A DNA stretch of 64,000 nt from Lingula anatina (lineage: Eukaryota; Animalia; Brachiopoda): positions 21,514,001 through 21,578,000 of the forward strand of contig CM120640.1 of the NCBI GenBank assembly GCA_051362555.1, in the 5' to 3' direction. The translations under genes and the position numbers were made by a program. Shown here in pieces: positions 12,747 to 64,000 of this stretch; the stretch's first letter is position 1, and each line of letters starts with the position of its first letter. The notes beneath the pieces were generated by a model. It searched no databases, was not told where the DNA came from, and worked only from the letters and a program-made list of their open reading frames with translations.

Positions 12747-13935
12747 GCTATACAAATGCTTTCCTACACCGTGTTTTGAAACATTGACCCCTAGAAAATG
12801 ATGGTTGTAGGTTAATGTTACATATCAAAAAGCAATACAGAAATTCCTTTGAATAGTTTTTGAATTTAGCCGACGAAATTAACCAATCATAACGAAAAAC
12901 TGATAAATTACGTCGAAAACGCATTTATAAACATCAACTACAATTGATAAAAAGTTACCGAGCTTTCGGCTTGTGTACCCGTCTCCAGGGACTAAAATAA
13001 GAATAATACACAAACTCTTTAGTCCCTGAAGAAAGCACACAAGCCAAAAGCTCGGGCACATTTTATCTTTCATAGCTGATCTTTATATGATGCGTTTTCA
13101 ATGTAATTTATTTATTTCTTATACAAGATCAACACGGTGATTACGATGAATCCTCATCGAAAAACTTACTGGGATGCATTGCGTTCATTCAGTAGAATGC
13201 TGCCTGACACGCTAAATACAACTGAAGACAAACGAGTTGTGAACTATGTTGAAATTAGGTTCAAAGTAAAATGCTGCGTTTTAAAGGAACACAAAGAGCC
13301 TACAATGAAAATAAAGAAATGGTTGACTGCACGGGCAGGCCAGGTAACGATATTTACGTTTTGTAGGTCATTCAAGTAAACCGGATACCCTTACTTACGT
13401 AAGGTGAGTAACACGCGGAACGCATTCATCCCCGGTTAGCGCCCCCATGTTAATGGGCTAGCACTACGAACTATTGTTGTGCCTTACAAATGCGTTAAAG
13501 TCTTATTAAAACTTATGTGCATTTATCTCATGGTTGATGCCAAGCAGTGAGGTTGCGTGAAAATATTAATGCAATGATATCACATTTTTTACTGTTTCTC
13601 CAGGGAAATAATTAATAAAATTTGCAGCCTTCAACAACTCAAATTTACATCATTTGGTCTTACAATGTTTGAACTAATGATTACATTGTTCCTCAGCCAT
13701 TCTGGTATCTACTATGTAAAAGTGTTGCGCAAATATTTTACTTATTGGCAACTACATTATTTTTCTTCTTCAAAAATTAACGATAATTTTTTTAACAGGA
13801 ACGGCATCCAATTAGTGTAAAAAAACATACTTTTTCCCACCCGCACCTTCAAGCCAATACTAATTTTCATAATCCGTTGAATATATATTCCCTAGATTTT
13901 ACCTGTAGTGCTTAACACACGTATATCTTACTTAC

Positions 13936-23488: not shown

Positions 23489-36590
<13,102 letters not shown>

Positions 36591-39670: not shown

Positions 39671-41784
39671 TAAAAAGAAGTATTTTCATTTTTTCCTTTA
39701 TGTATCTATCGATAACGGGAGTATAGGGACGTGTAATATTTTGGGACTAAATTTTATCGGTACGCCCCCAAACCTCCGTGTACGTACTGTAGGTCATATG
39801 TTGCCCTGAACAAACAACCTTCTTCTGGGGTTGCCCCCTCCCTTTCCGACTACAGACCTGTTAGTTTGGGTAATTAATCAACATAAAAGATCACAGGAGC
39901 TGAGGGAGGTAACTCCTTGCCTCCCCCCCCCCCCACACACACACACACACGGAAGTTTTTTTAAACCATGCCAGTTCTTAACAGTGAAAAGGGGGGCTAT
40001 GGAGCCCTGCATGCCATCTTCTTTCAAGCAAATATAAGAAGTAGTTAAAATATTTAAGCAAATGTAAAAAGTAACTACATGTAAAACATTAAATCACACC
40101 AAGTATATTATCCTTTCGTTATCCTTTCTCCTTCGAAAATTAATGCTATCAAAAACTGGACAACTCCACATAAATATTTATAGCAAAAATGTATTATCAC
40201 TTTATCTTTATTATCATCATCTGTGAAACAAGAAATAAAATTAAAGTTTCTTCAAAGTGCATTGTGGATCAGTGTATATTGTGAATAAGTGTTCCAGTGT
40301 AAGCGGACAAGGTCATTCAACGATGGCCTGGGGCAGGTTTATAAACTTCAGGTTGATATCATGTCAACAAGATGCAAGGACACTGTCAATAATAATTGGG
40401 GGAGAGGCATGCGTGGTTTCCCTCAAAAAACTATTAGAGCTGTACATTGATTCTTCCCTCCAAGGTAAATGCGCGTTCTTTTCTGTTTAAACATAAAAGT
40501 TTAGGTATGAAACTGCTGAATGCATTTCAAACGTAGGTGTATGTACAATGCAATAATGAAATTTGGGTCTCATTCTCATACGACACCCCCGCGTTCAAAC
40601 TGACAGGATGCTGACGACAGCAGCGCCCCCAGCCGACAATCTAAGATTGGAAGTCTAAGAGCGGGCAATTGTGAAGCGGGATGGACATATTGCGTTTCAC
40701 TTCAAAGGAGTACAAAGGACGCGAAGTGAGAGCGATTTTCTTCGGACAACCGCCTTCAAATCTCATGTAATCCTACGCCAATGCATCACACCTGAGGATA
40801 GTTTCGCCATGTGCTTCTGTGAATTCAACCCTTCAATCCATGCGAACTCTTCGCTCTGGGAAATGTATATGTACAAATAACACTCAGCTCTTAGCCCAGA
40901 CCTCGAATAACCGCCGCAGAAAAATTAATCGTAAATGGACTGAAATCCAAGCTACTGGAGATGGGTTAGTGCCAACATGTCATACTCTTTTCATTTCTGT
41001 CATATTCCTTTTACGCCTCTGTTTCTAGGTCGTTCTTGAAAGTTGAATGCCCTTTGAGGCTAGAACCAAAACCTATTTAGGTCACGCTTGTTTGGTTGTC
41101 GTGTTTCTCTTCTAAGGCTGATGTGCATTTTCTCTCAAGTGTGATTGAGTGTTTTTCCCTTTTGTGTATTGTTTTTATGTACAGACACATGTGTGCGATA
41201 AGTGGAAAACCTTTTTACCTTTTGGCTTGAAACTTACGGAACTGATGAATATTCATAATACGCAGGTCAAGTTCGAAAATCAGCATGATCGAGTCATTTT
41301 TATAAAAGTTATGCTGTTTTTTTTTCACTTTTTCCAGCATATATGCAACACCAATAACACGATATGTGGAAAACCATTTTTACATTTGGATTGAAACTTA
41401 CAGAACTGATGAATATTCATAGTACACAGGTCAAGTTAGAAAATTGGCATGATCAGACCATTTATATAAAAGCTTTTTTTTTTTTTTTTTACTTTTTTCA
41501 GCATATATGCACCACCGATAACACATTTCAAGGAAAATCAATTGGCCAATTGTCTAGAAATTCACAGGAGTGATCAGCCTTACTGAAATATAGATTTAGT
41601 TCGAAAGTAAGCTTGATTGGTTAAGTTTTGTTGAAGTTATGCCTTGTTTTTGTATGTAAGTGTTTTTTCCTCAGATTTAATTCTTAGGCATGTTAACAGT
41701 CTCATTTTTTTTAGCTAATTGGATATCTAAAGGTGTTCTTTTGACATTTTCTGCATCTTAACAATATTGTTAGTTGATTATATA

Positions 41785-44404: not shown

Positions 44405-44701
44405 TGATGGTAAACCTGTTATTGTGTATTGTGTAATAAAGTTTCAAAAATGGAAATAAACTCATATCTTTACAGTTTGTCAGATTCAATCATTCACTAT
44501 GATCAGAATCTCAGAATGGAGCAAATAGGACATTTGAAATTGTTCTATTGATATTTTTCCTATGTCAGCAATTTTCTTAGTTGATCATTTAAATATGATT
44601 AAAAAAGGTGTTGAAAATGGAAAGAAAATCAATCCATTACAGTTATCTCTTATTTACATTTTGGTATTTTGAAGCTGTGACTCAACTTCCATGACCTTAT
44701 C

Positions 44702-46115
44702 TTGTTTTTCATTTCTTTTTACAGGACAAAGAAGATGATGAGTGACCCCACTTGGACATGGACTTCATTCTGGATCCAAGCTAAGGTTAGTAATTTTCAT
44801 TTTTTTGGGGTTGTGGGATGGGTAAATTTAAAAAATCTAATCTCGCTTTTTGTTTCTTTTTTCAGGACAAAGAAGATGATGAGCGACCCCATTCGGACAT
44901 GGACTTCACTCTTGGATCCAAGCTAAGGTTAGTAAATTTCATTTTTTGGGGTGGTGGGATGGGTAAATTGAAAAAAATCTAACCTCGTTTTTCATTTCTT
45001 TTTACAGGACAAAGAAGATGATGAGCAACCCCACCCAGACATGGATTTCACTATTGGATCCAAGCAAAGGTTAGTAAATTTCATTTTTTGGGGTGGTGGG
45101 ATGGGTAAATTGAAAAAATCTAATCTCGTTTTCCATTTCTTTTTACAAAACAAAGAAGATGATGAGCGACCCCACCCGGACATGGACTTCACTCTTGGAT
45201 CCAAGCAAAGGTTAGTAAATTTTATTTTTTGGAGGGTTGTGGGATGGGTAAATTGAAAAAATCTAACCTCGTTTTTCATTTCTTTTTACAGGACAAAGAA
45301 GATGATGAGAAACCCCACCCGGACATGGACTTCACTCTTGGATCCAAGCAAAGGTTAGTAAATTTCATTTTTTGGGGGTGGTGGGATGGGTAAATTGAAA
45401 AAATCTCATCTCGTTTTTTGTTTCTTTTTTCAGGACAAAGGAGATGATGAGCAACCCCATTCGGACATGGACTTCACTCTTGGATCCAAGCTAAGGTTAG
45501 TAAATTTCATTTTTTGGGGTGGTGGGATGGGTAAATTGAAAAAATCTTATCTCGTTTTCCATTTCTTTTTACAGGACAAAGAAGATGATGAGCGACCCCA
45601 CCCGGACATGGACTTCACTCTTGGATCCCAGCAAAGGTTAGTAAATTTTATTTTTTGGAGGGTTGTGGGATGGGTAAATTGAAAAAATCTAACCTCGTTT
45701 TTCATTTCTTTTTACAGGACAAAGATGATGATTAGCGACTCCACTCGGACATGGACTTCACTCTTGGATCCAAGCTAAGGTTAGTAAATTTCATATTTTT
45801 GGGGTGGTGGGATGGGTAAATTAAAAAAATCTAAACTGGTTTTTCATCTCTTTTTACAGGACAAAGAAGATGATTAGTGACTCCACTCGGACATGGACTT
45901 CACTCTTGGATCCAAGCAAAGGTTAGTTAATTTCTTTTGGGGGGGAGGGGGGTTGTGGGATGGGTAAATTGAAAAAATCTAACCTCGTTTTTCATTTCTT
46001 TTTACAGGACAAAGAAGATAATGAGCGACCCCAGCCGGACATGGACTTCACTCTTGGATCCAAGCTAAGGTAAGTAAATTTCATTTTTTTGTGGTGGTGG
46101 GATGGGTAAATTGAA
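44702..46115 (+). repeat. Tandem array 1: 10 units of ~142 bp with exon/intron-like architecture
   Basis: Exon-like cores start at 44725, 44866, 45008, 45149, 45292, 45434, 45575, 45718, 45860, 46008. Consensus ctaat-Y-rich-tacag|GACAAAGAAGATGATGAGCGACCCCACCCGGACATGGACTTCACTCTTGGATCCAAGCWAAG|gttagt...ggggtggtgggatgggtaaattgaaaaaat. Confidence 0.95.
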
Positions 46116-46470
46116 ACAAAGCAGCAAAGCCATCAAATGTACAGGCAAAAAACAGAAAATAATAAAGTACAAAATAGTTTACTGCCAATTCTGATGCGCA
46201 GTCATACATTACGCTTAAGTGCAAAGTCAACATCAAGTTTTAATTATGCACAACATGAAAGTAAAAACATACGGCTTCAGGCCCATGAGAGTTCAAGTTC
46301 ACACTTAGAAAATGCCAGTTAGACAAATGAAAATTTCACAAAAATCACATAAATTCAATAAATAACATAGATGTTTAGAAAATGTGACAGGCAAAGGTCT
46401 TCAGGCACATGAAATTGCAAAGTCACACCTTAAATATTCCAATATGTGAAAAATGAAATATTTCACAAGA
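46116..46470 (-). mobile_element. Reverse-oriented HINE/Helentron 3' terminus and adjacent modules
   Basis: ACAAAGCAGCAAAGCCATCAAATGTACAGGC.. is homologous to the reverse complement of 61170-61291. It truncates array 1 inside an A-run. Confidence 0.7.
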
Positions 46471-46474
46471 AATG

Positions 46475-46672
46475 CCTCTCACAGGCCTCCCCATGTGTCG
46501 TCCCAATGGAGCCGAGATTTAATGACTGTACCCCCACAGGGACGACTTGTGGGGAGGCGTATGAGAGGCGGAGAGACTATTAAAAGATTAGGCGGTTTTC
46601 CTTCCATGTACGTCTGCCATATTAAGTTTGTGGCTTTGTAGAGCCATGGCTCAACTCGATGTGAATGGGGTC
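46475..46672. mobile_element. Truncated Harbinger-like MITE with an internal ~30-bp hairpin
   Basis: cctctcacaggcctccccatgtgtcgtccc ... gggacgacttgtggggaggcgtatgagagg form an inverted pair. Right end GAATGGGGTC|TTA is like 5819 and 28422. Confidence 0.5.
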
Positions 46673-47384
46673 TTAAATTCCAAACTGTGATGGCATTTTT
46701 GGTAAACTCCATTACTGGTTAGACAACAGTATGAGGAATTAGGGTAGGTCAGGATGATAGTTGATACATGCAAATATAGGTACATGCATGTACCTTACTA
46801 ATTTTTATGGTATCAAATAACAATTCATCCAAGCCTTTCTTCATCTTCATGTCATTCTTTAAGTTAGGTCAGGAAAGATGGATTTCTTCTTTATCTATGA
46901 TGCTCTCTAATATGATGATTATGTCCTTGCTTTCATCATCTATCTAAAATATGATAGTTATAAATATACATGTATATTTAGCAATATAATATGTATAATT
47001 TCATAAATGCGAAGAAAAGTACAATAATGTGTGAAAATGTATGACTAATTGTGATTTACAAATAAAATAATTAAAATATTTATGTACTGAAAAAAAAATT
47101 ATTTGTGCATTTAAAGTGTTATAAAGATGAAGAAGTGCAATTGGGAGAGATGAAGAAGTGCAATTGAGAGTTAGATATGCCAATTTGATGAAAGTGCTAA
47201 TTACTATTTCTTGCAAAAGGGTTAATAAGTGTAGCTTAATAAAGGAAATATGGAAATATTTATACTGGAATAATTTGTTGGTTGTTGATGCGTCATATCA
47301 ACGGGTTTTCAAATGAATTGAGGGATATATTGCTTTAATTGGATTTTGACTGTTCAAAACTTAAATGGGTGTTGCATTGTTTCT

Positions 47385-47604
47385 CCACATATATTGGTAG
47401 AAATAATTTTAACTTTTTAAAAGAAGGGGTTAATTTTTATGGTTCTGTTAATGTGCTTTCTTCGTAGTTTTGTTCTATGAAACTTTTGCATAATCCACAT
47501 ATATTGGTAGAAATAATTTTAACTTTTTAAAAGAAGGGGTTAATTTTTATGGTTCTGTTAATGTGCTTTCTTCGTAGTTTTGTTCTATGAAACTTTTGCA
47601 TAAT
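47385..47604. repeat. Perfect 110-bp tandem duplication
   Basis: ccacatatattggtagaaat...aacttttgcataat starts at 47385 and again at 47495. Confidence 0.92.
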
Positions 47605-47692
47605 ACACATGTTTAGCTATGTATGTGTCTTAAACAGCTGTGGATGGAAGTAATAAGGTTTGATAAAACTTGGGAGCAATTCCTCTATATAT

Positions 47693-50600
47693 TTAAAGGC
47701 AAGTTTTGGAAAATGACATACAGACTGGAAAATGATCACCAAAATAAGTAGGTAAAACTGTTATTTTAAGATCTGCATGATCAAAGTTTGTAAAGACAAG
47801 ATCTAAGGCTGAGTCATAAATGGTAGTTGGAGTTTTGACACACTGCTTAAACAGAAGGTCATGGCACATCATTTTTCTGAGGGCATTTGCATTGTTTTCA
47901 TGGAGCCAGTTGACATTAAAGTCACCTACAATAATGCATTTGTTTGCCTTATATAATTATCAATAGCCCCAATAGTATTCTTCAATGTCTCAAGGAGAAC
48001 TTGCATTTTACCATGAGGAGGACGGTAAATTGTGATGATGACAAAGTCAAGAAATTGTTCCAATCATGTGACAGTAATCTCAATGCCAGAGGAATTGTAA
48101 TTTTTTGGAAAATTCTTTGCAGTACCATGCTGTCTATAGAGAGAACTATCATTTCGGTGTAGATATTTACCTTTTACTTGGAATTTAGCATTTAAGTCTT
48201 AAGTAGCAAATCTGGTTTCTGTGCAAGCACATACATGTATATCTGCTTTCTCTACATCGTAACGCTTTCTAATATCTTCTATATATTTATGAAGAGAACA
48301 GCAATTCCAATGGATTATTTTGAAGTGGTCATCTGGTTGTTCGTATAGAAATGAAACAGATTTTACAAGCTGTGCTTCTTGTCTTAAACGTTTCATTTCT
48401 TGTTTTACTTTTTCAGAAATGCATATTTTACCGGCATTTAATTCCAAAATATGCAACCCTTCTAATTTTTCTACATGACTTAGTGCAACATAATGCATGT
48501 GTTCATTTTTTCTACCACTGAGATCTACAACTAATTCTTTCAATGTGTCACCTTGGCATCTGTGTATTGTCTTTGCAGCAGACAACTGTAGTGGAAACTG
48601 TTTTCTTATGACTTGATATTGTCCTGTTCTTTCCAGGTGAAATTGTCTGGAAAGATAGGTGTCCATGTTTTCGTAATGTTGCTACTATATAATGGTTTGT
48701 TCATTCTTCTGGCATTTTTGGCAATGTCCTCTGAGTCAAATTATACCCAAATTATTTGTCTGTCTAAATCTACCAGTTTAACAACACTTGGTGCACCATT
48801 AGTAATGCCATCTTCTGTGTCAACATTTAGGACAATTTCTGTCCTTTATCCAACTGCAATATGCAATATCCTTTGTAAATTCATGGTCTTTTTATGATCA
48901 AATGGAAATTGCTTTCTGATGTTGTTTTCTAAATGCTTTGGTACAGACCCAGTGATTGTATCAGTGGCTGCAATTTGAAATTTTTCTCCTTACGAAATTT
49001 GATAACTGGTATGATTGAAATGTTCAACCAGTGCATTTGTTTGGAAAACGTGTAGTAATGGTTGGTGGTAAGTTTTTGATTTATCAAGCTGACGTTCACT
49101 GATAATTTTTATATCTTTGTCGGTATGATTTCCTTCTCTAAGCCTATTTAAAATTTCTGCAAACTCTTTACTGTCTTTTTGACGCATAATCTGGGTCAGT
49201 TCATACATGTAAAAATGTTTCTGCCACAAATAAGTAGCTAATGGACAATAGTCATTGTCAGGATTTTCAAATATCCAGTTATCAAACACAGGCTTCAGTT
49301 GAAATAGGTCACCTATAGCCACAATGCTAACACCTCCAAACAGTCTGTCATTGTTTTTCAGTTCTTTTAGTCTTTCATTGATGAAACTTAACATTTTACT
49401 CCCAACCATTGAAACTTCATCAATAAAGAGAACTTTAAGTGATCCAAGTTTACATCTGAAACTATTTAGCACATCAGGACCAAGTCTTCTGTATTTGAAA
49501 CTTTGATTTGCTGGAATTTTCAGTAAACTGTGAATTGTGTGGCCACCAATATTATAAGCAGCTTTTCCTGTAGGAGCAACTAAAGCAACTCTAATTGTCC
49601 GAAAGTCCTCACCAGGTAAACTTGACATATACTTCAAAATGCCCTGATATAGAGCACGGGTGACAAATGATTTCCACACAACAGCACCTCCAGACAGGAA
49701 TATGTGAAACGGATCAGAATTGGACTTGACTAAATGCAAAACATGATGGAAAAACTCCAACTGTTGTTTGTTCATGTTTCTAATCATTTGAAAGTAATTA
49801 CTGTCAGATATCTCTTTATTGACAATTCCTTCTTCAGTGCAACTTTTGGCAGATACATGTATACCCAAATATTCTGCTAAATCATAAGACAGACCAACAG
49901 AAGACTGCACAACATTACTAGGTTCACACTGATCAGCTTTATTTTGATTCTGGGTATTTGGTGCAACAGTGGCCCACATATCTTCATCCTCACTATCCAC
50001 ATTATTAAGATTTCTCCAAAGGCATGCCATCTGTATCTAATAATCTAGAAGATTTTTTCTTGCTTCCACCCTTAACATTCAAATTGTTGTCATAATATGC
50101 GGCAAAATCTGCAAGGGAAACATTGTCTGAAGAAGGAAAGCGTTTGCTGTAATGTTTCAAGAGATTGCTGGACTCAATATTGTCAGATTCATCTTCCAAT
50201 TCTTTTATTTCTTCCAGTGGCTTAAGCAATCGTACTCTGTCTTCAGGGGTTGTAGTGTTAATGAATACAAATGATCGAGATGCTCTTCTCATGGGTAATT
50301 GTAAAGTGATGTACTAGTAGGCAGCTTCTTGAGCACAAATTTCAACATTGTTAAGAAATTTGTTTCCAACGTGACGGACTTACGGACTTGCTGTTTTATG
50401 TTACTGTTACCTTCTCTAGCTTCTTTGCAAGCTTGACAAAGTAAATCAGACATGACTCTGTCCTTTGGAAATGTAATTTACGATATATGTTGCACAAGCA
50501 TATATGTCTAAAACAAACTGAATATCCATATTTGCTCTCCATGCTTGTAAACATGACCTGGAATAATTGTTTATCCAAATTTCACTTGGGAGTCCTTTTA

Positions 50601-53600
50601 GGAACAATGTATCAGTCTTGATTGTAGATCTCACTGCCAAGATATAATCTTTTTCTGAGACTTGTACTTTATCTAAAAATTCTTCAAATGTGAGACTAAT
50701 ACCTGTGAAATCTTTGTCATTTATAATATTATGAATTAGTTTTCAAATCTTTGCATATTCTTTCTTCTGTGAAGCATCATCAAGGGGTGTCAAAATTACA
50801 CTTTGTTTCATTGGAGACTGAGGAAAATGGAATCTACAAGATTTTTTCAAATTTTTTATATATGTCCTTGTATGTTTGTGTGTCTGATAAGATGCAAGTT
50901 CTTTTAATGGATCATCTTCATTTGGACTGCTACAGCAAATTGTGTTATCAACAAATTGTATAATATCTTCATTAGAATTGACACCGTATATAGGTGCATT
51001 TTCTATCCAAAGAAGCATGTGAATATGTGGACTAACTCTATGTTGAAATTCTACACGGTAAAAAAAATCTTGTATTTTACCTAATGGTGCTACCTTGTGG
51101 CAGAGAAAATGATGTATCAAACACTGCACTTGATAATCAAAATGTCGTGCACAAGTAATAGGATCACTCTGAATCAAGCAACATATCTTTCATCCCAGCT
51201 GAGTTGTTCTAGCTCTGCATCTGAATAATCTTTATTATCTACCAATTTACCCAGAGTTCTGAGTAAATGATTCCATTTTGTTTCAGCAGAAGAAAAACTG
51301 CAAAAAAAGGTTGCTGATCCTAGCTGAAGTATCATTGCAAATAGATCTTTCTTTGCTTTCTCAATTTATGGGGGGAACCACGAACTCCTCTTAAGAATGT
51401 ATAACCTTCGTAAGAGTTTCTCAGTGGCTCCAGACTGTTTAAAATCTCCTGCAGTGAGTTTCTTTCCATTTGTTTTATGTTTTCTTACAGCAAGAGCCGC
51501 TGACCCAATCAATCTTTTCATCTGCAATTTTTTTGCCTTAAAAAATATGTTGTCAACACACATTGATGCTCTTCTGTCATTGCGTCTTAATTCAGACTTG
51601 CAGATGTCACTGTAGTGTACAGGAACAAGTCTGCTTTTATTTGCAGGCTGTGCATTGCCAAGATATATTTCTGGAAAAGCCAGTTCTTCACAGTGTTCAT
51701 CTCTAAATATGCTGAGTGGCTGACCTTCTTGACCAGGTGCAAAAGAGTAAATTTTCTCTCTCTCTGTGTCTTCCAAGAAGTCTCTGCCTGTTAACATTGT
51801 ATCTCTTATACCAGGCTTCATTTCTTTGTCATCAATTTCATCCCAGTCTTCAGTATCATTGGACTGCAAGTATTTACCTCTATCTGAATTAGCCTGTGTC
51901 ATCTCCTTCCTTTGCAGCAAGTTCTTGTTTATGATATTAGCAGGTAATGATAAGTCGCATACATTTTGCACTACGTCATAGTGATCAGAATTAGTGTTTT
52001 GCAGGTAAATGGCCTTCTCAATCTCATGTGAATGATTTTTCTGATCAAGAAACTTGGCTGAATACTTCTACCATTTCCAAGAGTTGCTGCTTGCAGTAGA
52101 CATAGATGTCAGTTTGTAGTAAATGTGCTGCAGCAGGTATTTATGTTTCAGTACCCCAAACATTTACATTATTCATGGCTGTTCTTCTTACATAAGTTGC
52201 TGATGTCCTGTCATTATCGCCTAAAGTATTACTTGCAAAAGCATACTCAAGCTGCTTCATATGACTGAGGATTCTGTTTCTAAGTATAACAACGTGTCAC
52301 AACCAGTAATGGCAAAAGACAAACCTTGAAAAAAACAATTTCCATCTCCAATAATTTTTTTCAACTTGCTAGGTTTTGTCAAGAGAATATTACAACTAGT
52401 TTCAGGCAAATTGTGTGGACGCTTTAATTGTAAATTTAATTTGTCAGTCATTTTCTCTTGCCACAGGGCAACTACAGGCATAAAATGAAATAAAGTATTG
52501 TCAGTCCGTAGATGTTGTATCTCATTTTCAGATTCACAAAATTCAGGTAATAAATGTCGTTGCTGTATGTATGATAACTCTTTTTGCAAGTTTGAAACAT
52601 ATCTTACTCTGTGTCGAATTTTCTTAACAGTCTTGAAGTATCTTGAGTACCATGTTTTTCCTTGTTTTTTTTTCTTTTGAACAAGCCATAATAACTCAGT
52701 TTCAAATGCTTGTATTTTCTTAGTACATGGTGGTGCTTATAAGCCATGAATTTTTCAATTCCTACTGTACTTGGAACTCTGATTCTATTTGTCTTCATGC
52801 AATATCTTGATCTGCCTCTGGTTTGTGATTTGAATGCAGTTACTTCTAAAACATGAGGGTGTAGTGGAGAACCAGTAATTTTTCTTTCACTTTGAATAGT
52901 AGCCACAAATTTGTCAACATCAACAGATGGGTCATGTTTATAAGGCTTGTCTAAAATTACATAGAATTCATCTGCAAAATCACCATCCTGATCCATAAAT
53001 TGTCCTTCTTCAGAAAATTGGATATTTCCACAATCAGAAGGGCACTCAACACAAACAGATTCTTTCAATAATAGGTTTTGTACTTGTTCCTCATTCAAAT
53101 TATTCACACTTGCCCTTTTTCCATTTGTTTAAATGTGATAGAGCTGCAGGGATTATATATCTTCTAATTTCCATGTTGGGTCTACAGTTATTCCTTTTTC
53201 TTGAAACAATTTCCCATTAGCAGTTAACCAATTTGCTGCTTCAAGGTCTTTGTTAGGCCTTACATTCTGAGCATAGGCATAACTCTTAAATTTCACATTT
53301 CTTTTCAGTTGAACTTAAATTGTTGAACTGTCGGTGTCAGTTCTTGGTAATTTTGTTACAGTGGATGTTACATCTGCTGGTATGTTTACAACATTCCCTT
53401 CTAATTATTTTGTATTGTTTTCCACATGGAGCTTGATGAAGTTTCATGAAAACTAACCTTGCATGGGCTAGTTAATCTCCACTCTAAAGTTTTAAATCCA
53501 AGAAACTGGATTTTTCTGTAAATGACGTGCAATTTACAATAGCACATGGAGGTATTTTGTTCTTTTTCAAGTGAGAAGCGCATGTTAAACACATCCAATT

Positions 53601-55386
53601 ACTGTTGAATAAATCATCAACTTCTTTGCATTGATTAACTGCTTTATTCTCTATATTCAAAATAGGCTCTCTATTTATGACAGTATGTCTGTACCAGAGT
53701 TGTTGACATATAAAGCATGTGTAAGTACAACCTTCAGTAACCTTTTTGTGGAACTGTTGTATCAATTCTTGAAGAGTAGTATTGGTTTTCTGTCTCTTAT
53801 TACGCTTAGCAACTGTATCAGTCTTCCTTTCACATATTCTGAAATTGGGATCAGAACCTTTTTTGGTATTTCTCAGTAACGTTATAATCAGGATTAGATC
53901 TTTTCAACTGTTTGTGCTTTAGAATATTGTTCTTCACGTCAGACTGAGAACGTTTTAGTCTCTGATTTTCTTGTTCAGTTTTCCTGTACTGAGGATCAGA
54001 TCTTTTTAACCTTTTTTGGTTTTTCTCAGTAACTTTGTAACCAGGATCAGACCTTTTCAACTGCTTGTGCTTTAGAATATTTGCTTTCACATGGGACTGA
54101 GAACGTCTCTGGGCTTCTTGTTCGGTTTCCCTGTACTGAGGATCAGACCTTTTCAACTGCTTCTGCTTTAGAATAATACTCTTCACAGCTAACTGAGAAT
54201 GTTTTAGCCTCTGGTTTTCTTGTTCAGTTTTCCTGTACTGAGGATCAGATCTTTTTAACCTTTTTTGTTTTTTTCTGAGTAACTTTGTAATCAGGATGAG
54301 ACCTTTTCAACTGCTTGTGCTTTAGAATATTGGACTTTACATCAGACTGAGAACGCTTTAGTCTCTGAGATTCTTGTTCAGTTTTCCTGTATTTTAGATC
54401 AGATCTAAGAAGTTGCATTCTAATTTTATTCTTCTCTCTTTTCAAAACATTTCTGTCAGTGCCACTGGTTTCCATTAATGAACTATCCAAGAGAGTTTTA
54501 TTCACTGTGTTAATTTTGCTTTATTGTTTGTCTTCTGCCCATTTTAACTGCTTCTTCATTTCATCATGTAATATTTTCATATGGGGTTTGTGCAAATTTG
54601 TTTTATCAAAAATGGAAGAGATGGAATCAGAAGTAATGGGATTACCAGTGTATTTTGTCAATGTTGCTTTTCTGTACTGAAATGTACTGGCAACCTTGTC
54701 CATTAAACCGGTTTTTAAATTTATCTTAATCTTGTAGCAAGTTTTCTGACATGAACATTCTTTTCCAAAGGTTTAAGCGATGATGTTAATGTTACTATTT
54801 GAGGATCATTTTTTAGAATTTCAGAAGAAACTGATTGTTGTGATTTTTCTTTAATTTTTGGGGTACTGTTGAGAGCTTTGGGTTAACTGGCATTTTTGAC
54901 TTTACAAGTAAGGCTGACATATCTGATTATGTATGATCTGAATATTTCATAGACTTAATTGAAGGATCTGCAGCATCAGTGGCACTCAAACTGATGGGCA
55001 TTTCAGGATAATCTGTGTCAACTGTAGCATCTGTCTCAACTGTAGCATCTTAATGAGCTCCATAAACAGTATCATCTGAATCAATAGTAATCTCAGTAAA
55101 CTCTGTCAACTCAGTAAAATCTGTCAACTCAGTAAACTCTGTCAACTCAGTTCCCACCGAGGTGGGCGTGGCTACCGAAGTAGCCACAGACAACACAGTT
55201 CCCACAGAGGTGGGCATGGCTACCGAAGTAGCCACAAGCAACTCAGTTCCCACTGAGGTGGGTGTGGCTGCTGAAGCAGACACAGTAGGAGGCCTGTTTG
55301 CCTCAGCCACCCTCTGTTGACTTTCTTTGTTCTTTTTCTTCTGCAGTGCCCTTTTTGTAGCCAAACTGTTTTTTCAAGCTAGGCAT
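47693..55386 (-). mobile_element. Decayed Helentron/Helitron2 Rep-helicase polyprotein gene (many frameshifts and stops)
   Basis: Order N to C: Thr/Ser-rich repeats (55050-55364); K/R/Q-rich repeats RSDPQYRETEQENQRLKRSQSDVKNNILKHKQLK (53851-54420); CxxC motifs CFICQQLW and CLTCASHL; GNVVNIPADV..KLPR..VRP segment typical of Helitron N-termini; OTU-like IGDGNCFF (~52330-52355); FAPGQ..EELAFP; Rep motifs TFFCSFS, VEFQHRVSPHIHMLLW (HUH), YIVNYISK; PIF1 motifs GGAVVWKS (degenerate Walker A), APTGKAA, IDEVSM, GDLFQLKPV, QIMRQ, RKQFPL..TIHRCQG, YVALS; C-terminal endonuclease WNCCSL, TET, IYRPP, GDFN, DLVF, GDH; stop at 47695-47693. Confidence 0.9.
53851..54400 (-). repeat. Coding tandem repeats in the Helentron N-terminus
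   Basis: Recurrent ttcctgtactgaggatcaga / ttttcaactgcttgtgctttagaatatt / actgagaacg blocks encoding RSDPQYR, RSQSDVK and LKHKQLK. Confidence 0.85.
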
Positions 55387-55927
55387 CTAAAAAAGTATAA
55401 AAATACTATATTTATTGCCAAGAATATAACAAGCTGGTTAAAAGGAATAAAATATAATGGGAAATGAAAGAGTGGTAAACAGTTTCTTTTGAGTGCAACT
55501 GCATGATAAGAATCTTTCCACAAACTACCATGACTAAGAAGAAGTGCACTGTGAAACATTATTTATTAATGTGTTAATTCTGTAATTAAAGGTGCATGTA
55601 AACTGAGTATCAGTGGAGAGTGAATTCCCAGTAACCCATGTAAGCACTTCTACTAGTTACTTGTATAAGTGAAGGTTAAATCAACATGGCAAAGGTCAGA
55701 CCAAATTAATCATATATCAACCATAAAAGAGACTTAAAATGTACCTTCGTTGGTGGTAAATTTGGCCTACTTATGTGAGCTACTTATCAGTCCTTTTTAT
55801 ATATGGCTTAGAAAGCAGGCAAAAGAACCCATTTATGGGTAATATAAAATGTCTTTTGGCATTGCTTTAAGTAGTACTATCTGAAACTATATGGTTGCAT
55901 TCATTCGGTTTTTGGTAAAACATTTAA

Positions 55928-56245
55928 GGGATAATAACTATTTGTTTTGGACAAAACATGAACAATTCTCCTATACCTATCAATGGTTAATGAATTCACT
56001 TCTACATTCAAAGTTAGTCCCTGTTTTTTTTCCTTAAAAGTATGTTTTTTTGCAATAATCTATTAAGAGATTATTACAGAGTATAGCCATCTATGGAGGT
56101 CACATGTCCAATGACAAGCTCGGATATCAGAATAATAGCTATAACTGCCATTTTTGTGGTAAAACAGAATATATTATATTTCTATGAGTTGTTTACAATG
56201 TTTTTATTGTGAAATATATATTTCATACAAAGAGTTATTATCCCT
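55928..56245. mobile_element. TTAA-flanked MITE (Kolobok-like)
   Basis: TTAA|GGGATAATAACT ... AGTTATTATCCCT|TTAA, with homologous copies near 42812 and 27103. Confidence 0.8.
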
Positions 56246-57492
56246 TTAATCCAAATGCATCTTAACTTATCACTATTCTAAATGAATGAAGTATATCTAT
56301 TGCCAAGTTGATGAGGTTGAAAGCCTCAAGTAGTGCTTTGTAACTGAAACTGTGAGCTGAAATTAAGCATCACTAAAACTCAACATAAAATATTTATGTT
56401 TTCTTGCCAAATGAAATTTTCATGGGGAAAAGAGTATCTTTCTCATATTACAAGTGATTGGTAAACCTGTACCCTGCACATGGATTCAATGTTTTATTCC
56501 ATTTTAAAAGAATAAGAACAATTTAATAGTGAATGCTGTGAAAACCATAAAATTTTGCTGTACTCTTCTTCCTGCCTTTACAGAAAGTACAACTGGAATG
56601 ATCTGGACTTACCAACTTATATTGGGCCTGGTAACAAGTTTGATTAAGACACATTTATTTGTCTTAATATGTCAAAGCTCAGTTGTTAGACTGGGATGTA
56701 AATTATGACAAGATACACTCAGAAAAACTATTATCTAAGGGTTGTATCATTATTAAAAATTTTGGGAAAATTTGCAGGAGAAAATAGTACTTTTGGGACA
56801 TGTTCAAACTTGCTCAGCCTAGCTTTAAACTCTTTACTGTTTTTACTCTTTATACAATATGTATTGATATTCTTTAATCAAGATGTCAGAAAACAAGTGA
56901 AATTAGGAAGCCATGGCTACTGAAAATAAGTGCAATGATAACATTTCTTCTCTTTATATACAGAATATCTGTACCAGGTTGACTTTTTTGTAAACAAAAT
57001 ACCTATGATATCTTAAATTACCTTAGATTAAATTAATCTAATTACTACTAGCTTCCAAACAGATTCATTACAGAACAAAGCAAAAAATAAAGGAACTTGG
57101 TACCTTTGATAACTGTTAGTATTACTTTAGATTCCTCTAATTAACCTGTAAAATAATAGAAAAAGAATCTCTTGCCTCATAGCTCTTACAAACTGAATGG
57201 GAATCAGCTACATATACTAACGAGCATGAGATAACTGAGTACTTGATTAAAACATATTTTTAGTACTTTTGTAACTCCGTAACTGAACATGCATTTGTGT
57301 ATGTGGATATGTGGGCAAATTTGAATCCAACACCTAAGTTCATAGAACAAATGAAAAGCACATTTACACTTTTGGCAGATCTACATGTATACACAACTTA
57401 TTTCTAATCAGTCAGTAACAGAAAAGAATCATTTCAATATTAATGACTCAGGAAATACTCAGGAGTCAATTGTAATAGAAATTTAACACAAA

Positions 57493-57495
<3 letters not shown>

Positions 57496-57529
<34 letters not shown>
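57496..57529. repeat. (TG)17 microsatellite
   Basis: Pure TG run, read directly. Confidence 0.95.
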
Positions 57530-57530
<1 letters not shown>

Positions 57531-58962
57531 TGCTTCAAGTGTGGGTGACAATGAACATGGCATTTTTATCCATGTCAAGGTTTAATCAAGGGTAAAGTTT
57601 CCCTGTTGAAAAAAAATGCCAAATTACCTCACTGGAGTTATACAGAATGAATAACACTTTTCAACCACTTGTTTGTTGTACACCACATACCAAAAACTAC
57701 TTTCACAGGTTATTTAAATGAACATCCATCCATCCATCCATTAATAAATATTTAAATTGTTCATCCCCTGATGATGAGCCTAGTCATTATAATACATTTT
57801 CAAAGGGAATATTCTCAAGTTAGGTCAACCTGTAGCTTGGTGGGACGGACTGTCTGCTTGAAAGCAATTAAGCTTAATCCCTTTATTAACCAATCATACC
57901 TACTTATACGGGGGGGAGAGGGAAATGAACTGACCTCTTCTAAAAGTTGCTGAAGTGTGGTGTTGATGGTTACCTTTAATAATCACACTGTCAAGTCAAT
58001 GTGCACTAAATCAAAAGCACAGCAAAGTTATAAAAATGCTACTACCCTGTACTAGAAACTCATCCTGTCTCCATAGGGGTAAAACAAAAGATTCTCTTAC
58101 CCCAAAAGCTGATGATCTGGATGACAAGTTAAATCAGCCAAACAATGATCCCCTATTTCTGCAGCAAGCATCTATCAATTGCATATTTTTACACAGGTGA
58201 ACTAGTTATTATCTACAATTAATTCTGCTAAAAGTCTACATTTAAGTCTGAATATACTATGGGCTCACTGTAAAAACCTAAAAAAGCTGTAAACCTAAGA
58301 AAGATTGTTTGAAATAATCATTCTGCACAGTTAGCCACCCTCCTACTCTGCAAATGCTACACAGGTGCAGAACATGTTTGAATTGTTAAAGAAAATGTGT
58401 ACCTTTTAATTTTTCTTACACAGACATGTATAAGTAATAAATCTTAAGAAAGTATATCCATGAGAACTAAGAGAACCTATTTTAAACTGCATCAGTATTT
58501 ATTAATTAACCCTTTAACTCTAATATCAGTAAAAGAAAATTTATTGATTCAAAAATAAATTGCATAGTACACTTCAACTGTGATACATGGTCATTTAAAA
58601 CTTAAGAGAAGGTCATTGATTAAAAACTCACACAAGCAGTTCAAGCGAGTTTCATTCTACAGCATCAAACACAGCTACATTGTATGCTTTGTGAGTTCTA
58701 ATGTATCTTGAACTACAAATAAAAGCTCCCTATCCACTAAGTCAATTACATAATTATCAAACATAGCAAAAATATGTATCATTTAATATATTTTTACACT
58801 TATTTTGAAGGGGAATAAAAAGTGGATGTGTGTACTACTGTATTGTATTTATGAAAAAGCCTAGATGATTACAGAAATATTCCAGCAACTATTTTAATAC
58901 ATTTAAAAATGTAAACAATCACTCATGGATTAAAACAGTGAAAAACTTATCTTGAGACTTAC

Positions 58963-61291
58963 TTTTTATGTACAGACACAGATGTGTCTGTACATATTGC
59001 CATCACCTGCGTCTGTCGTCGCCGATGCCGATGCCGATGCCGATGCCGATGCCGATGCCGTCGCCGGCGCCGTGCACTTTCCTTGTAAACACGATAAGTG
59101 GAGGGCAGTTTTACTTTTTGGCTTAATATTTACAGAGCTGATGAATATTCATAAAACGCAGGTCAAGTTCGAAAATCAGCATGATCGGGCCATTTTAAGG
59201 GAAGTTATGCTGTTTTTTCACTTTTTTCAGCATATATGCAACCCTGTAAACACAATATAAGAAAAACAGATAGGCCAATTGTCATTAAACTCATAGGAGT
59301 GGTCAATCTTATTAAAATGCAGGTTGAGTTTGAAAATCAGCATAATCGGGGCATTATTTTAGAAGTTATGCTGTTTTTTCACATTTCCTCAGATTCAAAT
59401 CTTAGGCATGTTAACAGTCTCATTATTTAACTAATAAGATACGTAAAAGTGTTTGTTTGACATTTCCTGCATCTTTACAACATTGTTAGTTGATTATGTA
59501 AAAATGATGGTAAACTTGTTATCGTGTATTGTGTAATAAAGTGTCAAAAATGGAAATAAACTCATATCATTGCAGTTTGTCAGATTTAATCATTCACTAT
59601 GTTCAGAATCTCAGAATGGAGGAAAAAAGACATTTAACACTATTCTATTGATATTTTTCCCATCTCATCAATTTTCTTAGTTGATCATATAAAGATGGCA
59701 GTAAACTGTTTATTTTGTTTTATGTTAAAAAAAGTGTTAAAAATGGAAATAAACCCGTGTCAGAACAGTGCTGTCTTGTTTCACATTTCCTCAGATTCAA
59801 TTCTTAGGCATGTTAACAGTCTCATTATTTAACTAATAAGACATGTTTAAGTGTTTGGTTGACATTTCCTGTATCTTTACAACATTATTAGTTGATTATG
59901 TAAAACTGATGGTAAACTTGTTATCATGTATTGTGTAATAAAGTTTCAAAAATGGAAATAAACTCATATCATTGCAGTTTGTCAGATGCAATCATTCACT
60001 ATGTTTAGGATCTCAGAATGGAGGAAATTGGACATTTAACACTGTTGTATTTATATTTTTCCCATCTCATCAATTTTCTTAGTTGATCATATAAAGATGG
60101 CAGTAACCTGTTAATTTTGTTTTATGTTAAAAAAATTGTTAAAAATGGAAAAAAAAACATTTCAGAACAATGCTGTCTTGTTTACATTTTGGCATTTTCA
60201 AGTTCCATGGGCCTGAAGACCTTTGCTAGTCACATTTTCTGAATATCCATGATACTAATATTTTATTATTAAAATTGATGGTCATTATGCTGTTAAACAT
60301 TATGTAATATTGCATCGAAATTTGAAAAAAACCTATTTTGGGCACTGCTCCCATGATGACCATTTAAGAAAAACAATGTCACTTACTGTTCTCAAACAGT
60401 ACAGTAAATATGTACAGATGTGTCTGTACATATTGCCATCACCTGTATGTGCCGTCGTCGCCGTCACTGTCGCCGGCGCTGGCGCCGTGCACTTTCATTG
60501 TAAACATGATAAGTGGAAGGCAGTTTTACTTTTTGGCTGTATATTTACAGAGCTGATGAATATTCATAAAACGCAGGTCAAGTTCGAAAATCAGCATGAT
60601 CGGGCCATTTTAAGGGAAGTTATGCTGTTTTTTTAACTTTTCAGCATATATGCAACACTGAAAACACATTTCAAGGAAAACTGATAGGCCTGTTGTCATG
60701 AAACTCACAGGAGTAATCGATCTTATTATAACGCAGGTCAGGTTCGAAAATTGGCATGATCGGGCCACTGTTTTAGTAATTATGCTTTTTTCTTCACTTT
60801 TCAGCATATATGCAACACAGTAAATACAATATAAGAAAAACAGATACGCCAATTGTCATGAAACTCACAGGAGTGGTCATTCCTGCTAAAACGCAGGTTG
60901 AGTTCAAAAATCAGCTTAATCGGGCCATTATTTTAAAGAAATGCCGTTTTTTCACATTTCCTCATATTCATTTCTTAGGCATGTTAACAGTTTCATTATT
61001 TAATTAATAAGATACGTAAAAGTGATAGTTTGGCATTTCCTGCATCTTTACAACATTATTAGTTGATTATGTAAAAATGATGGTAAACTTGTTATCGTGT
61101 ATTGTGTAATAAAGTTTCAAAAATGGAAATAAACTCATATCATTGCAGTTTGTCAGATTCAATCATTAAAATTTGATGTTTAATTTGCAGTTTAACATAA
61201 TGTACTTTTGCATCAGAATTGACAGTAGCCTATTTTGTGCATAGTTACTTCCTGTTTTTTGTCTGTACATTTGACAGCTTTGCTGCCTTGT
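58963..61291 (+). mobile_element. Non-autonomous Helentron-associated element (HINE/DINE-1-like) with internal duplications
   Basis: 5' TTTT followed by a perfect 13-bp hairpin TATGTACAGACAC-agat-GTGTCTGTACATA, then (GCCGAT)n, core repeats, and ~400-bp modules at 59380, 59782 and 60953 (last partial). Second head at ~60408. 3' subTIR GTCTGTACAT plus stem-loop GACAGC-TTT-GCTGCC, then TTGT. Confidence 0.8.
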
Positions 61292-61899
61292 CTAACACTT
61301 GGAGACACCTACCTGTACCAGTGGGCATCGACTTTTAAGATTTCAGGAAAATTTACAACAGTATTATATAATACAGACCTGCTGTTTCAAGATAAACTAC
61401 CAATATTTTACCTATGATAAAGCATCATTTGTAAACATAACCTTTTCTTTGTACTTATTGCTAGTAGCTATCTAAATAAAATGCACATTTCTGGTACTTA
61501 GATGATCCTGAGACTTAAATGACAATGATCTAAAACAATACTTACATTCTATTGGCACACTGATTATGCTGACTAACTTCAACTGTGTGGCTTCTTAACT
61601 TCAAATGTGATCTGGAAGAAACAGAGGAAGAATATGATATATACCCAATGAATAAGGAAAGATTACTCAATCCAGCACTGATGTTTTTATGTCAAAAACA
61701 CTCCTTTATTTTTTATCAGCAACATTATTGAGAAGAAACTAAGGTAACTCTATAATTTTATAATAATATTACCAGTAACATCACCAATTACTGTGATACA
61801 GAACAAAAATTGACCTCCCTTGGAGCAGAGTACACTAAACAATACTGCTTTTTATATCACAAGCTGTTCGACACCATGAAACAGTTATGCTACAGACAG

Positions 61900-62216
61900 T
61901 CAGATAAGAAACGGAAGCAACCTTGATAAAGACATCAATGCACAAAGTAGAAATCTCTTAGAATTGTGTGCTAGCAATAATCTGAGGATAGTAAATGGAA
62001 GAATAATAGGTGATTCCTTGGAATACTTCACAGGTTTTAACAATCACGGTTGCCTATACGCAATTGTAAGTGACAGGATGCTCAGAAAGTTTAGTTTCTT
62101 CACAGTTCATCCCATAGATTACCTGTCAGATCACTGCTTGCTAGATCTTGCAATTAAATGTTTGGGTTATCAAGAGAAAGATAATGCTAAAATAGTGAAA
62201 AACCTTAATGATAGGT
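61900..62216 (+). pseudogene. Fragment of a LINE retrotransposon AP-endonuclease domain
   Basis: DKDINAQSRNLLELCASNNLRIVNGRIIGDSLEYFT...YAIVS...VHPIDYLSDHCLL is typical of the C-terminal half of non-LTR APE domains. Cut off by array 2. Confidence 0.7.
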
Positions 62217-62218
62217 CT

Positions 62219-64000
62219 GGTTAGTAAATTTCATTTTTTAGGGTGGTGGGATGGGTAAATTGAAAAAATCTAATCTGGTTTTTCATTTCTTTTTACAGGA
62301 AAAAGAAGATGATGAGCGACCCCACCCGGACATGGACTTCACTGTTGGATTCAAGCAAAGGTTAGTAAATTTCATTTTTTTTTTTGGGTGGTGGGATGGG
62401 TAAATTGAAAATAAATCTAATCTCATTTTTCATTTCTTTTTACAGGACAAAGAAGATGATGAGCGACCCCAGCCGGACATGGACTTCAATCTTGGATCCA
62501 AGCTAAGGTGAGTAAATTTCATTTTTTTAGGGTGGTAGGATGGGTAAATTGAAACGAAATCTAATCTCGTTTTACATTTCTTTTTACAGGACCAAGTAGA
62601 TGATGAGTGACCCCAGCTGGACATGGACTTCACTCTTGGATCCAAGCAAAGGTTAGTAAATTTCATTTTATGGTGTGGTGGGATGGGTAAATTGACAAAA
62701 TCTAATCTTGTTTTTCATTTCTTTTTACAGGACAAAGAAGATGATGAGCGACCCCAGCCGGACATGGACTTCACTCTTGGAACCAAGCTAAGGTTAGTAA
62801 ATTTCATTTTTTTTAGTGTGGTAGGATGGGTAAATTGAAGCAATCTAATCTGGTTTTTCATTTCTTTTTACAGGACCAAAAAGATGATGAGTGACCCCAG
62901 CTGGACATGGACTTCACTCTTGGATCCAAGCAAAGGTTAGTAAATTTCATTTTTTTGGGGTGGTGGGATGGGTAAATTGACAAAATCTAATCTCGTTTTT
63001 CATTTCTTTTTACAGGACCAAGAAGATGATGAGTGACCCCAGCTGGACATGGACTTCACTCTTGGATCCAAGCAAAGGTTAGTAAATTTCATTTTTTTAG
63101 GGTGGTGGGATGGGTAAATTGAAAAAATCTTATCCGGTTTTTCATTTCTTTTTACAGGACAAAGTAGATGATGAGCGACCCCACCCAGACATGGACTTCA
63201 CTCTTGGATCCAAGCTAAGGTTAGTAAATTTCATTTTTTTGGGATAGTGGGAAGGGTAAATTGAAAAAATCTAATCTCGTTTTTCATTTCTTTTTACAGG
63301 ACAAAGAAGATGAGCGACCCCTACTAGACATGGACTTCACTCTTGGATCTAAGGTAAGAAGGTAAGAAAATTTCATTTTTTTGTGGTGGTGGAATGGGTA
63401 AATTGAAAAAATCTAATCTGGTTTTTCATTTGTTTTTACAGGACAAAGAAGATGATGAGCGACCCCACCCGGACATGGACTTCACTCTTGGATTCAAGCA
63501 AAGGTTAGTAAATTTCATTATTTTTTGGGTGGTGGGATGGGTAAATTGAAAATAAATCAAATCTCATTTTTTATTTCTTTTTACAGGACAAAGAAGATGA
63601 TGAGCGACCCCAGCCGGACATGGACTTCACTCTTGGATCTAAGCTAAGGTTAGTAAATTTCATTTTTTAGGGTGGTGGGATGGGTAAATTGAAAAGATCT
63701 AATCTCGTTTTTCATTTCTTTTTACAGGACAAAGAAGATGATGAGCGAACCCCACCCGGACATGGACTTCACTGTTGGATTCAAGCAAAGGTTAGTAAAT
63801 TTCAATTTTTTGGGGGGTGGAGGGATGGGTAAATTGAAAATATATCTAATCTCATTTTTCATTTCTTTTTACAGGACAAAGAAGATGATGAGCGACCCCA
63901 GCCGGACATGGACTTCAATCTTGGATCCAAGCTAAGGTTAGTAAATTTCATTTTTTTAGGGTGGTGGGATGGGTAAATTGAAAAAATCTAATCTAATTTT
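62219..64000 (+). repeat. Tandem array 2: at least 12 units of the same ~142-bp repeat, running off the window
   Basis: Exon-like cores at 62299, 62446, 62590, 62731, 62874, 63016, 63158, 63300, 63442, 63587, 63728, 63875. Same consensus and orientation as array 1. Confidence 0.95.

What the first reader, a model, noticed from the sequence alone, without database searches (positions are those of the whole stretch)
44702..64000. A 142-bp satellite whose monomer is a complete exon-plus-intron cassette, in two co-oriented arrays either side of a Helentron
Seen: each of at least 22 units has a CTAAY-like branch point, a ~20-nt pyrimidine tract, YAG|G, a purine-rich 62-nt core (GAAGATGATGA, enhancer-like), and AAG|GTTAGT (variants GTAAGT at ~46070 and GTGAGT at ~62508), then an ~80-nt intron-like spacer with G-runs. 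Indels fall almost only in the spacer; one core lost a clean 3 nt (63300). With this donor, 62 nt is not a multiple of 3, so serial inclusion hits a stop within three exons. A weaker donor 4 nt later (TTA|GTAAAT) would give an in-frame 22-aa repeat DKEDDERPHPDMDFTLGSKQRL. Two units carry TAG in that frame and one lost its AG. Inference, three options: a multi-exon repeat lncRNA; an array of alternative or mutually exclusive exons (donor-to-branch distance only ~50 nt); or a satellite born from an amplified captured exon. In any of these the array could act as a splice trap for read-through transcripts.
Basis: partly seen in the sequence, partly recalled or inferred. Interest (0 to 1): 0.72.

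Follow-up and report, generated by a model that had tools for sequence, protein, structure and literature searches.

The report
Spliced exon-intron minisatellite in a brachiopod
A 142-base repeat in a lamp-shell (Lingula) genome is one small exon plus one intron copied at least 22 times; a few RNA reads show copies of this exon joined at the predicted splice sites into RNA that cannot encode a long protein, likely a by-product of repeat growth in a transcribed region rather than a selected function.

Summary
The repeat is real: 22 cores in two + strand arrays (44697-46116; 62219 to past 64000) in a Lingula anatina-like genome, either side of a decayed Helentron. Against 22 introns of the neighbouring DPYD gene, the 62-nt donor and the acceptor score in the top 0.1-2% of local GT/AG sites; the 66-nt donor does not. 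Raw RNA reads laid on one monomer show a 62-nt exon-to-exon joint that fits GT-AG exactly (5 reads, 2 of 4 runs), unspliced tandem joints (10 reads, 3 runs) and a 2.5-fold exon excess on one strand. The reads carry variants of other copies or another population, and there is no DNA control. No frame codes; exon, intron and splice sites mutate at indistinguishable rates, CpGs 5-fold faster. Best reading: an exon-plus-intron minisatellite, a two-boundary relative of amphioxus 'mirages' and a miniature non-coding counterpart of SmPoMuc repeats, spliced at low level and likely neutral. Host transcript and parent exon not found.

The parts
44697..46116 (+). Array 1: 10 exon cores (first at 44725-44785, 61 nt; last at 46008-46069) with 79-86-nt introns; starts at the branch-point motif, ends 47 nt into an intron; both flanks are dispersed repeats
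46008..46069 (+). Monomer exon used as read reference; canonical GTAAGT donor at 46070; 62-nt back-joint fits 46069 to 46008
62219..64000 (+). Array 2: starts at a donor site, 12 exon cores (62299 to 63936), runs off the window
47696..55373 (-). Decayed Helentron ORF pieces (OTU-like weak, Rep, PIF1 helicase, endonuclease) between the arrays; context, not part of the repeat
40401..41300 (.). CpG-rich patch (o/e 0.88) upstream of array 1; candidate promoter of a host transcript (inferred, untested)
23489..36590 (+). DPYD gene, 23 coding exons; ends 8.1 kb before array 1 on the same strand; source of the splice-site model and a possible source of read-through (untested)

Best explanation
The 142-bp unit is a 62-nt exon plus a 79-86-nt intron repeated in tandem; RNA reads show copies of the exon spliced to each other at low level, and the repeat likely arose by duplication of one exon with its flanking intron ends, likely lies in a methylated transcription unit, and is likely evolving neutrally. 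Steps: (1, inferred) a segment running from a branch point through a 62-nt exon to about 50 nt of the next intron was duplicated, so each new junction rebuilt a complete short intron; (2, inferred from block-wise similarity) slippage or unequal exchange amplified it, and mobile-element insertions or a relocation left two arrays 16 kb apart; (3, shown for the repeat family, not for this locus) one strand is present in polyA RNA, part unspliced and part spliced at the 62-nt boundaries; (4, shown by sequence) the spliced ladder has no long reading frame; (5, inferred) the product is a low-level non-coding or decay-prone RNA without detectable selection on it.
For: Donor 9.7 bits (top 0.1% of 1343 local GT) in 19 of 22 units and higher in 3; acceptor 8.3-13.7 bits (top 2% of 1247 local AG) in 21 of 22; DPYD leave-one-out medians 6.9 and 6.2. 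Joint 'goes back 62' in X1 (1 read) and X3 (4 reads, 4 starts, side up to 62 nt), none in X4 or X7; its ambiguity window contains the exact GT-AG register, and only 39 of 7021 possible back-joints are GT-AG. Exon/intron depth 2.45 and 2.46 for first-mate-minus reads of X1 and X3, 1.27 for the other strand of X3, 1.14 in X7; unspliced reads alone are modelled flat. Exon 0.67 versus intron 0.76 changes per non-CpG site (P 0.49), no codon-position pattern, CpG sites 3.5 versus 0.72 (P 2e-5). CpG o/e 0.84 before DPYD, 0.22 in it, 0.14-0.21 around the arrays; gene-body methylation is the usual pattern in non-vertebrates (PMC8330077, passages). Identity between arrays 90.3% versus 91.1-91.3% within.
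Against: Only 5 joint reads, possibly fewer molecules. The reads are not shown to come from this locus: they carry T at 45986 (8 of 8, 10 of 10, 5 of 8 reads in X1, X3, X7), a variant in 2 of 22 window units, and only 14 of 5920 laid reads are 99% or more alike. No DNA run was laid, so an intron-less genomic copy is not excluded, and the strand convention was not calibrated on a known gene. Neither parent exon nor host transcript was found. Hints of constraint exist: GT intact in 22 of 22, branch A in 21 of 21, all three +3 donor variants are purines, 2 changes at 7 key sites versus about 5 expected (P 0.15); with 22 related copies the test is weak, so neutrality is not proven. Most of the X1 exon excess (about 19 read-equivalents, 1 joint) is unexplained by exon-to-exon joining. 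CpG depletion could reflect transposon methylation instead of a gene body.
Confidence: 0.58

Rival explanations
1. A functional repeat-exon long non-coding RNA: a promoter near 40.4-41.3 kb drives a transcript whose body is a ladder of 62-nt exons acting as repeated protein-binding or localisation modules, as RRD does in FIRRE.
For: PolyA, one-strand, spliced reads; level differs about 15-fold between runs (depth per Gb 14-16 in X1/X3, 6 in X7, 1 in X4); CpG-rich patch upstream; non-significant hints of splice-site constraint; repeat present in RNA of at least two studies.
Against: Core mutates as fast as the intron; unspliced tandem joints outnumber spliced ones 10 to 5; no Rfam match near a gathering score, best E 2.6; pooled depth is only about 30 over all copies.
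Confidence: 0.16
2. An array of cassette or mutually exclusive exons inside a larger host gene (5' part upstream or 3' part beyond 64000): usually one core is included, acting as a frameshifting poison exon or a 5' UTR exon.
For: In X1 about 19 exon-only read-equivalents but one exon-exon joint; donor-to-branch distance 53-60 nt and introns shorter than all 22 DPYD introns (minimum 121 nt); a back-joint on a single monomer cannot tell neighbour joining from skipping one unit.
Against: Exon-exon joints occur; every frame is broken in many copies (6, 11 and 22 of 22 cores with stops); no convincing flanking coding exon by a splice-model scan or protein search.
Confidence: 0.12
3. An ordinary satellite at this locus: the joints come from an intron-less or 62-bp genomic copy elsewhere, from another locus, or from back-splicing, and these two arrays are never spliced.
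For: Reads differ from the window copies at fixed sites; no DNA control; 3-nt AGG microhomology at the joint; flanks are transposon patchwork.
Against: The joint matches the best-scoring donor and acceptor exactly; exon excess is strand-specific within one library; an intron-less copy would itself most simply derive from spliced RNA.
Confidence: 0.1
4. A protein-coding repeat using the donor 4 nt downstream (66-nt exons, 22-aa repeat), like SmPoMuc or EBNA-LP.
For: 66-nt joining of all 22 cores leaves one open stretch of 153 codons.
Against: Donor scores 1.9 bits, exceeded by 25% of local GT; no 66-nt joint listed; 10 of 22 units broken; no protein of 106-2000 aa matched.
Confidence: 0.02
5. 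A central repeat array of a non-autonomous Helentron (HINE) or a spliced-leader RNA gene array.
For: Helentron nearby; HINE-like elements with other repeats occur at 58967 and 60407; a U-rich, Sm-site-like run follows the donor (motif recalled, from no call).
Against: No perfect inverted repeat or microsatellite in the array flanks, the two arrays have unrelated left flanks; a strong acceptor precedes each core, depth is only about 30 and falls rather than rises toward the donor.
Confidence: 0.02

Closest known systems
Amphioxus 'mirage' minisatellites (Adh3, globins BflGb6/BflGb9; PMC3087553, passages read)
   Same: Minisatellite-sized unit (10-160 bp there, 142 here) copied from an exon-intron boundary, 81-100% alike, in a marine invertebrate; many copies keep AG/GT signals.
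   Different: Mirages span one boundary and sit in a known coding gene whose normal splicing is undisturbed; here each unit holds both boundaries and a whole intron, there are at least 22 copies, no host gene was found, and reads show the copies being spliced together.
Schistosoma mansoni SmPoMuc exon-2 repeats (PMC2576457, passages read)
   Same: A small exon with its flanking intron parts repeated in tandem (up to about 20 times) and serially included.
   Different: Unit about 1 kb, exon 27 bp, in frame and protein-coding in a gene family; here 142 bp, 62 nt, out of frame, non-coding.
FIRRE RRD exonic local repeat (PMC4820808, passages read)
   Same: Non-coding RNA built from repeated homologous exons (7 of 13 human exons).
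   Different: RRD copies are discontinuous local repeats with a tested nuclear-retention function, conserved human to mouse; here a contiguous minisatellite with no function or conservation shown.
Epstein-Barr virus IR1 W1/W2 exons (bioRxiv 10.1101/2025.04.23.648900, passages read)
   Same: Every unit of a tandem repeat supplies exons that are spliced in series.
   Different: 3-kb viral unit with its own promoter, two exons, coding, efficient splicing; only an analogy.
Cg_HINE non-autonomous Helentrons with central repeats (PMC7492417, passages read)
   Same: Short satellite-like arrays in a Helentron-rich spiralian genome.
   Different: The diagnostic flanks were not found at these arrays.

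Membership tests
Mirage-type minisatellite | Tandem unit that spans an exon-intron boundary and keeps splice signals | tested here: met
   Both boundaries in each unit, high-scoring
Mirage-type minisatellite | One unit is the authentic boundary of a known host gene | tested here: inconclusive
   No parent exon in the rest of the window beyond shuffle level; no protein match; no whole genome held
Mirage-type minisatellite | Extra copies are ignored by splicing | tested here: not met
   62-nt exon-to-exon joints in 5 reads of 2 of 4 runs, for the repeat family
Mirage-type minisatellite | Length instability between haplotypes or cells | not testable with these tools
   Only one assembly stretch in hand
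Coding tandem exon repeat (SmPoMuc, EBNA-LP type) | Exon length a multiple of three, frame kept in the copies | tested here: not met
   62 nt; stops in 6, 11 and 22 of 22 cores by frame; 66-nt form broken in 10 of 22
Coding tandem exon repeat (SmPoMuc, EBNA-LP type) | Serial inclusion of repeat exons | tested here: inconclusive
   Exon-exon joints seen, but runs longer than two exons and neighbour order cannot be read from a single-monomer lay
Repeat-exon lncRNA (FIRRE type) | Spliced, polyadenylated non-coding transcript containing repeated exons | tested here: inconclusive
   Joints and one-strand exon excess in polyA runs; ends and full structure unknown
Repeat-exon lncRNA (FIRRE type) | Repeat has an RNA-level function or conservation | tested here: inconclusive
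   No significant constraint among 22 copies; function not testable here
HINE central repeat | Left flank with subTIR, inverted repeat and microsatellite; right flank with subTIR and palindrome; flanks shared between copies | tested here: not met
   the right flank of array 2 lies outside the window
Spliced-leader RNA array | Donor without upstream acceptor; abundant leader joined to many mRNAs | tested here: not met
   Strong acceptor in 21 of 22 units; low depth, declining toward the donor
Helentron (element between the arrays) | Rep and PIF1 helicase followed by an endonuclease | tested here: met
   PF14214, PF05970 above cut-off; PF14529 E 4.4e-6, 27.0 bits against a cut-off of 27.4

The most novel reading that the evidence does not exclude
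A minisatellite that is itself a gene body: a 142-bp exon-plus-intron unit whose copy number sets the exon count of a regulated non-coding RNA, with each duplication creating a working 80-nt intron, that is, exon and intron gain by satellite turnover caught in use.
Probability: 0.18. Interest if true: 0.72.

Novelty: new variant of a known kind. Interest (0 to 1): 0.46.

Why it matters
Repeats that copy splice boundaries are known and were proposed as raw material for new introns (PMC3087553, passages), but there the extra signals appear unused. Here the unit is a complete exon plus intron of only 142 bp and reads show the signals in use, so the locus offers a natural series of 22 or more near-identical short introns in which branch-point, donor and acceptor variants can be tied to splicing outcome. 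Without evidence of selection or a host gene it remains a curiosity of satellite origin, not a new mechanism.

Tried and rejected
No whole genome is held, so copy number, other arrays and a single-copy parent exon could not be searched. Run search: no RNA holder listed; 9 raw-read RNA runs offered by species label, 4 of the 9 laid. A lay covering DPYD and the upstream region was not obtained, so there is no positive control, no strand calibration and no test of read-through or of the candidate promoter. Protein searches: frame-1 stretch, 3 candidates, none scoring (proteins of 106-2000 aa only); 42-codon open frame at 40840-40965 in the CpG-rich patch, none; frame-2 stretch gave one hit, P0121, a nameless 56-aa tandem repeat at about 30% identity with six weak stretches summed, rejected as spurious; ESM Atlas, no usable hit. 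DNA patterns: 0 in metagenome contigs and viral contigs. Rfam: 8 matches at E 2.6-9.1, all far below gathering. A resemblance between the core and 40929-40955 scores 25, within the shuffled range 25-39: rejected. Splice-model exon scans gave candidates (for example 61720-61743, 43118-43183) but nothing verifiable. Earlier notes by sequence and by genome: none. Literature searches (listings only) showed no description of this repeat or of a sub-200-bp non-coding exon-plus-intron satellite with read-supported splicing; the library lacks most subscription papers. PMC10078293 (passages) concerns repeats that modulate nearby splicing, not repeats made of exons. No supplements were opened.
Full report
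Setting. An exon at 34514-34776 is 100% identical to a protein named dihydropyrimidine dehydrogenase of Lingula anatina, and that protein maps letter for letter to 23 exons at 23489-36590 on the + strand. The window is therefore from this brachiopod or a very close form. No whole genome is held. DPYD ends 8.1 kb before the first array, so the arrays are not in a DPYD intron.

The observation. Tandem Repeats Finder reports a 142-bp period at 44704-46116 and 62219-63994, the second running off the window. I located 22 cores, 10 and 12. Each has a CTAAY-like motif with its A at -26 (21 of 21 examined), a pyrimidine tract, CAG (21 of 22), a core of 62 nt (20 of 22; one 61, one 63), a GT donor (22 of 22) and an intron of 79-86 nt. 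A position matrix from the 22 DPYD introns scores the 62-nt donor at 9.7 bits or more (top 0.1% of 1343 local GT sites) and the acceptor at 8.3-13.7 bits in 21 of 22 units (top 2% of 1247 local AG sites), above the leave-one-out medians of the real DPYD sites (6.9 and 6.2); the alternative donor 4 nt later scores 1.9 in most units. The training set is small, and the 22 copies are one observation, not 22. Between the arrays lie broken ORFs of a minus-strand Helentron and other repeats.

RNA evidence. No indexed RNA holder was listed; 9 raw-read runs with the same species label were offered and 4 were laid on one monomer plus flank, 45976-46740. Two kinds of back-joint appear on the monomer. One goes back 141 bases with one extra A and is the unspliced tandem (4, 2, 0 and 4 reads in X1, X3, X4, X7). 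The other goes back 62 bases (1, 4, 0, 0 reads), with three ambiguous letters that include the exact donor-to-acceptor register 46069 to 46008; 39 of 7021 possible back-joints are GT-AG. All 5 have the first mate on the - strand, which by the tool's note means + strand RNA in most stranded libraries; this was not calibrated, and 4 of 4 in X3 is not significant on its own because that strand dominates. No 66-nt joint is listed, though 4 weaker joints were not shown. Depth on that strand is about 2.5 times higher in the exon than in the intron in X1 and X3, but 1.27 times on the other strand of X3 and 1.14 in X7, and a model of unspliced reads alone is flat. Limits: few reads, mates may repeat a molecule, no DNA control was given, and the reads carry a letter at 45986 that only 2 of 22 window units have, with 14 of 5920 laid reads at 99% identity or more. 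The result holds for the repeat family in animals bearing this label, not provably for these two arrays. In X1 the exon excess is much larger than the single joint explains, so some cores are probably joined to sequences outside the reference; those loose ends were not among the rows shown.

Coding and selection. The three frames of the core contain stops in 6, 11 and 22 of 22 copies, and the 66-nt form is broken in 10 of 22. Joining all 62-nt cores leaves at most 76 open codons, 62 from an ATG. Parsimony counts on a monomer tree give 0.67 changes per non-CpG site in the exon and 0.76 in the intron (P 0.49), no codon-position pattern, and 3.5 at CpG sites (P 2e-5), mostly to TG or CA. GT and AG show 1 change against 2.9 expected (P 0.22); seven key splice positions show 2 against about 5 (P 0.15, chosen after seeing the data). 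So constraint is neither shown nor excluded. Three cores carry indels, two of them frameshifting, and intron indels fall in homopolymer runs.

Context and history. CpG observed/expected is 0.84 before DPYD, 0.22 within it, 0.88 at 40401-41300 and 0.14-0.21 on either side of the arrays. In many non-vertebrates methylation lies mostly in gene bodies but also in repeats (PMC8330077, passages), so the pattern suggests, without proving, a transcription unit starting near 41 kb. The arrays are 90.3% alike between and about 91% within, with near-identical pairs three units apart in array 1 and ten units apart in array 2, as expected from block duplication of one ancestral array. Array 1 begins at the branch motif inside a dispersed repeat and ends against another; array 2 begins at a donor beside an unrelated sequence. 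The flanks lack the inverted repeat and microsatellite that define HINE elements. No parent exon or host exon was found.

Mechanism. Shown: the anatomy, the scores, the lack of coding capacity, CpG decay, and spliced and unspliced RNA of the family. Inferred: origin by duplication of one exon with both intron ends, amplification by slippage or unequal exchange, transcription from the CpG-rich patch or by DPYD read-through, and neutrality. I put 0.58 on this by-product reading, 0.16 on a functional repeat-exon lncRNA, 0.12 on a cassette array in an unseen host gene, 0.10 on these arrays being unspliced, and little on coding, HINE or spliced-leader readings.

Comparison. It works like SmPoMuc exon-2 repeats or EBV IR1 in that repeat units supply serial exons, but fails their coding criterion. 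In size and origin it is closest to amphioxus mirages, but holds both boundaries and its signals are used. FIRRE is the model for a functional outcome. All these papers were seen as passages only. Earlier notes of this scan describe similar boundary-copying satellites in other animal genomes; these are unchecked leads, and they suggest the broad kind is not rare. Verdict: a new variant of a known kind, with direct but thin evidence of splicing; interest 0.46.

Noticed in passing
window 58967-59400 and 60407-60950 (+); related copies near 41185 (+) and 39300-39630 (-): HINE-like non-autonomous elements: perfect 14- and 12-nt inverted repeats, a GCC-rich microsatellite, then about 160-bp tandem repeats and 402-bp units.
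   Followed up: partly
window 18005-19825 (-): A 606-codon open frame with both thermolysin-family (M4) peptidase domains, in an unmethylated-looking region; M4 peptidases are mainly bacterial (recalled), so a possible horizontal acquisition.
   Followed up: no
window 10755-12824 (-): A 689-codon uninterrupted frame with an LDL-receptor class A domain and, by eye, a C-terminal membrane segment; looks intron-less.
   Followed up: no
window 46474-46672: A long hairpin (46474-46570, -29.6 kcal/mol) belonging to a multi-copy fold-back element that draws deep RNA coverage and strand-switching reads in all 4 runs.
   Followed up: partly
window 47384-47610: Two 110-bp copies at 99% identity; recent duplication or assembly artefact.
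   Followed up: no
window 61756-62221 (+): Open frames that look by eye like a LINE endonuclease remnant, cut off where array 2 starts; no Pfam match.
   Followed up: partly
window 45362-45682 (+): Monomers of 141 nt read through exon and intron without a stop in one frame, giving a chance 106-codon frame; no Pfam match.
   Followed up: partly
window 23489-36590 (+): 4 of 22 DPYD introns start with GTT, so the GTTAGT donor is not unusual in this genome.
   Followed up: yes
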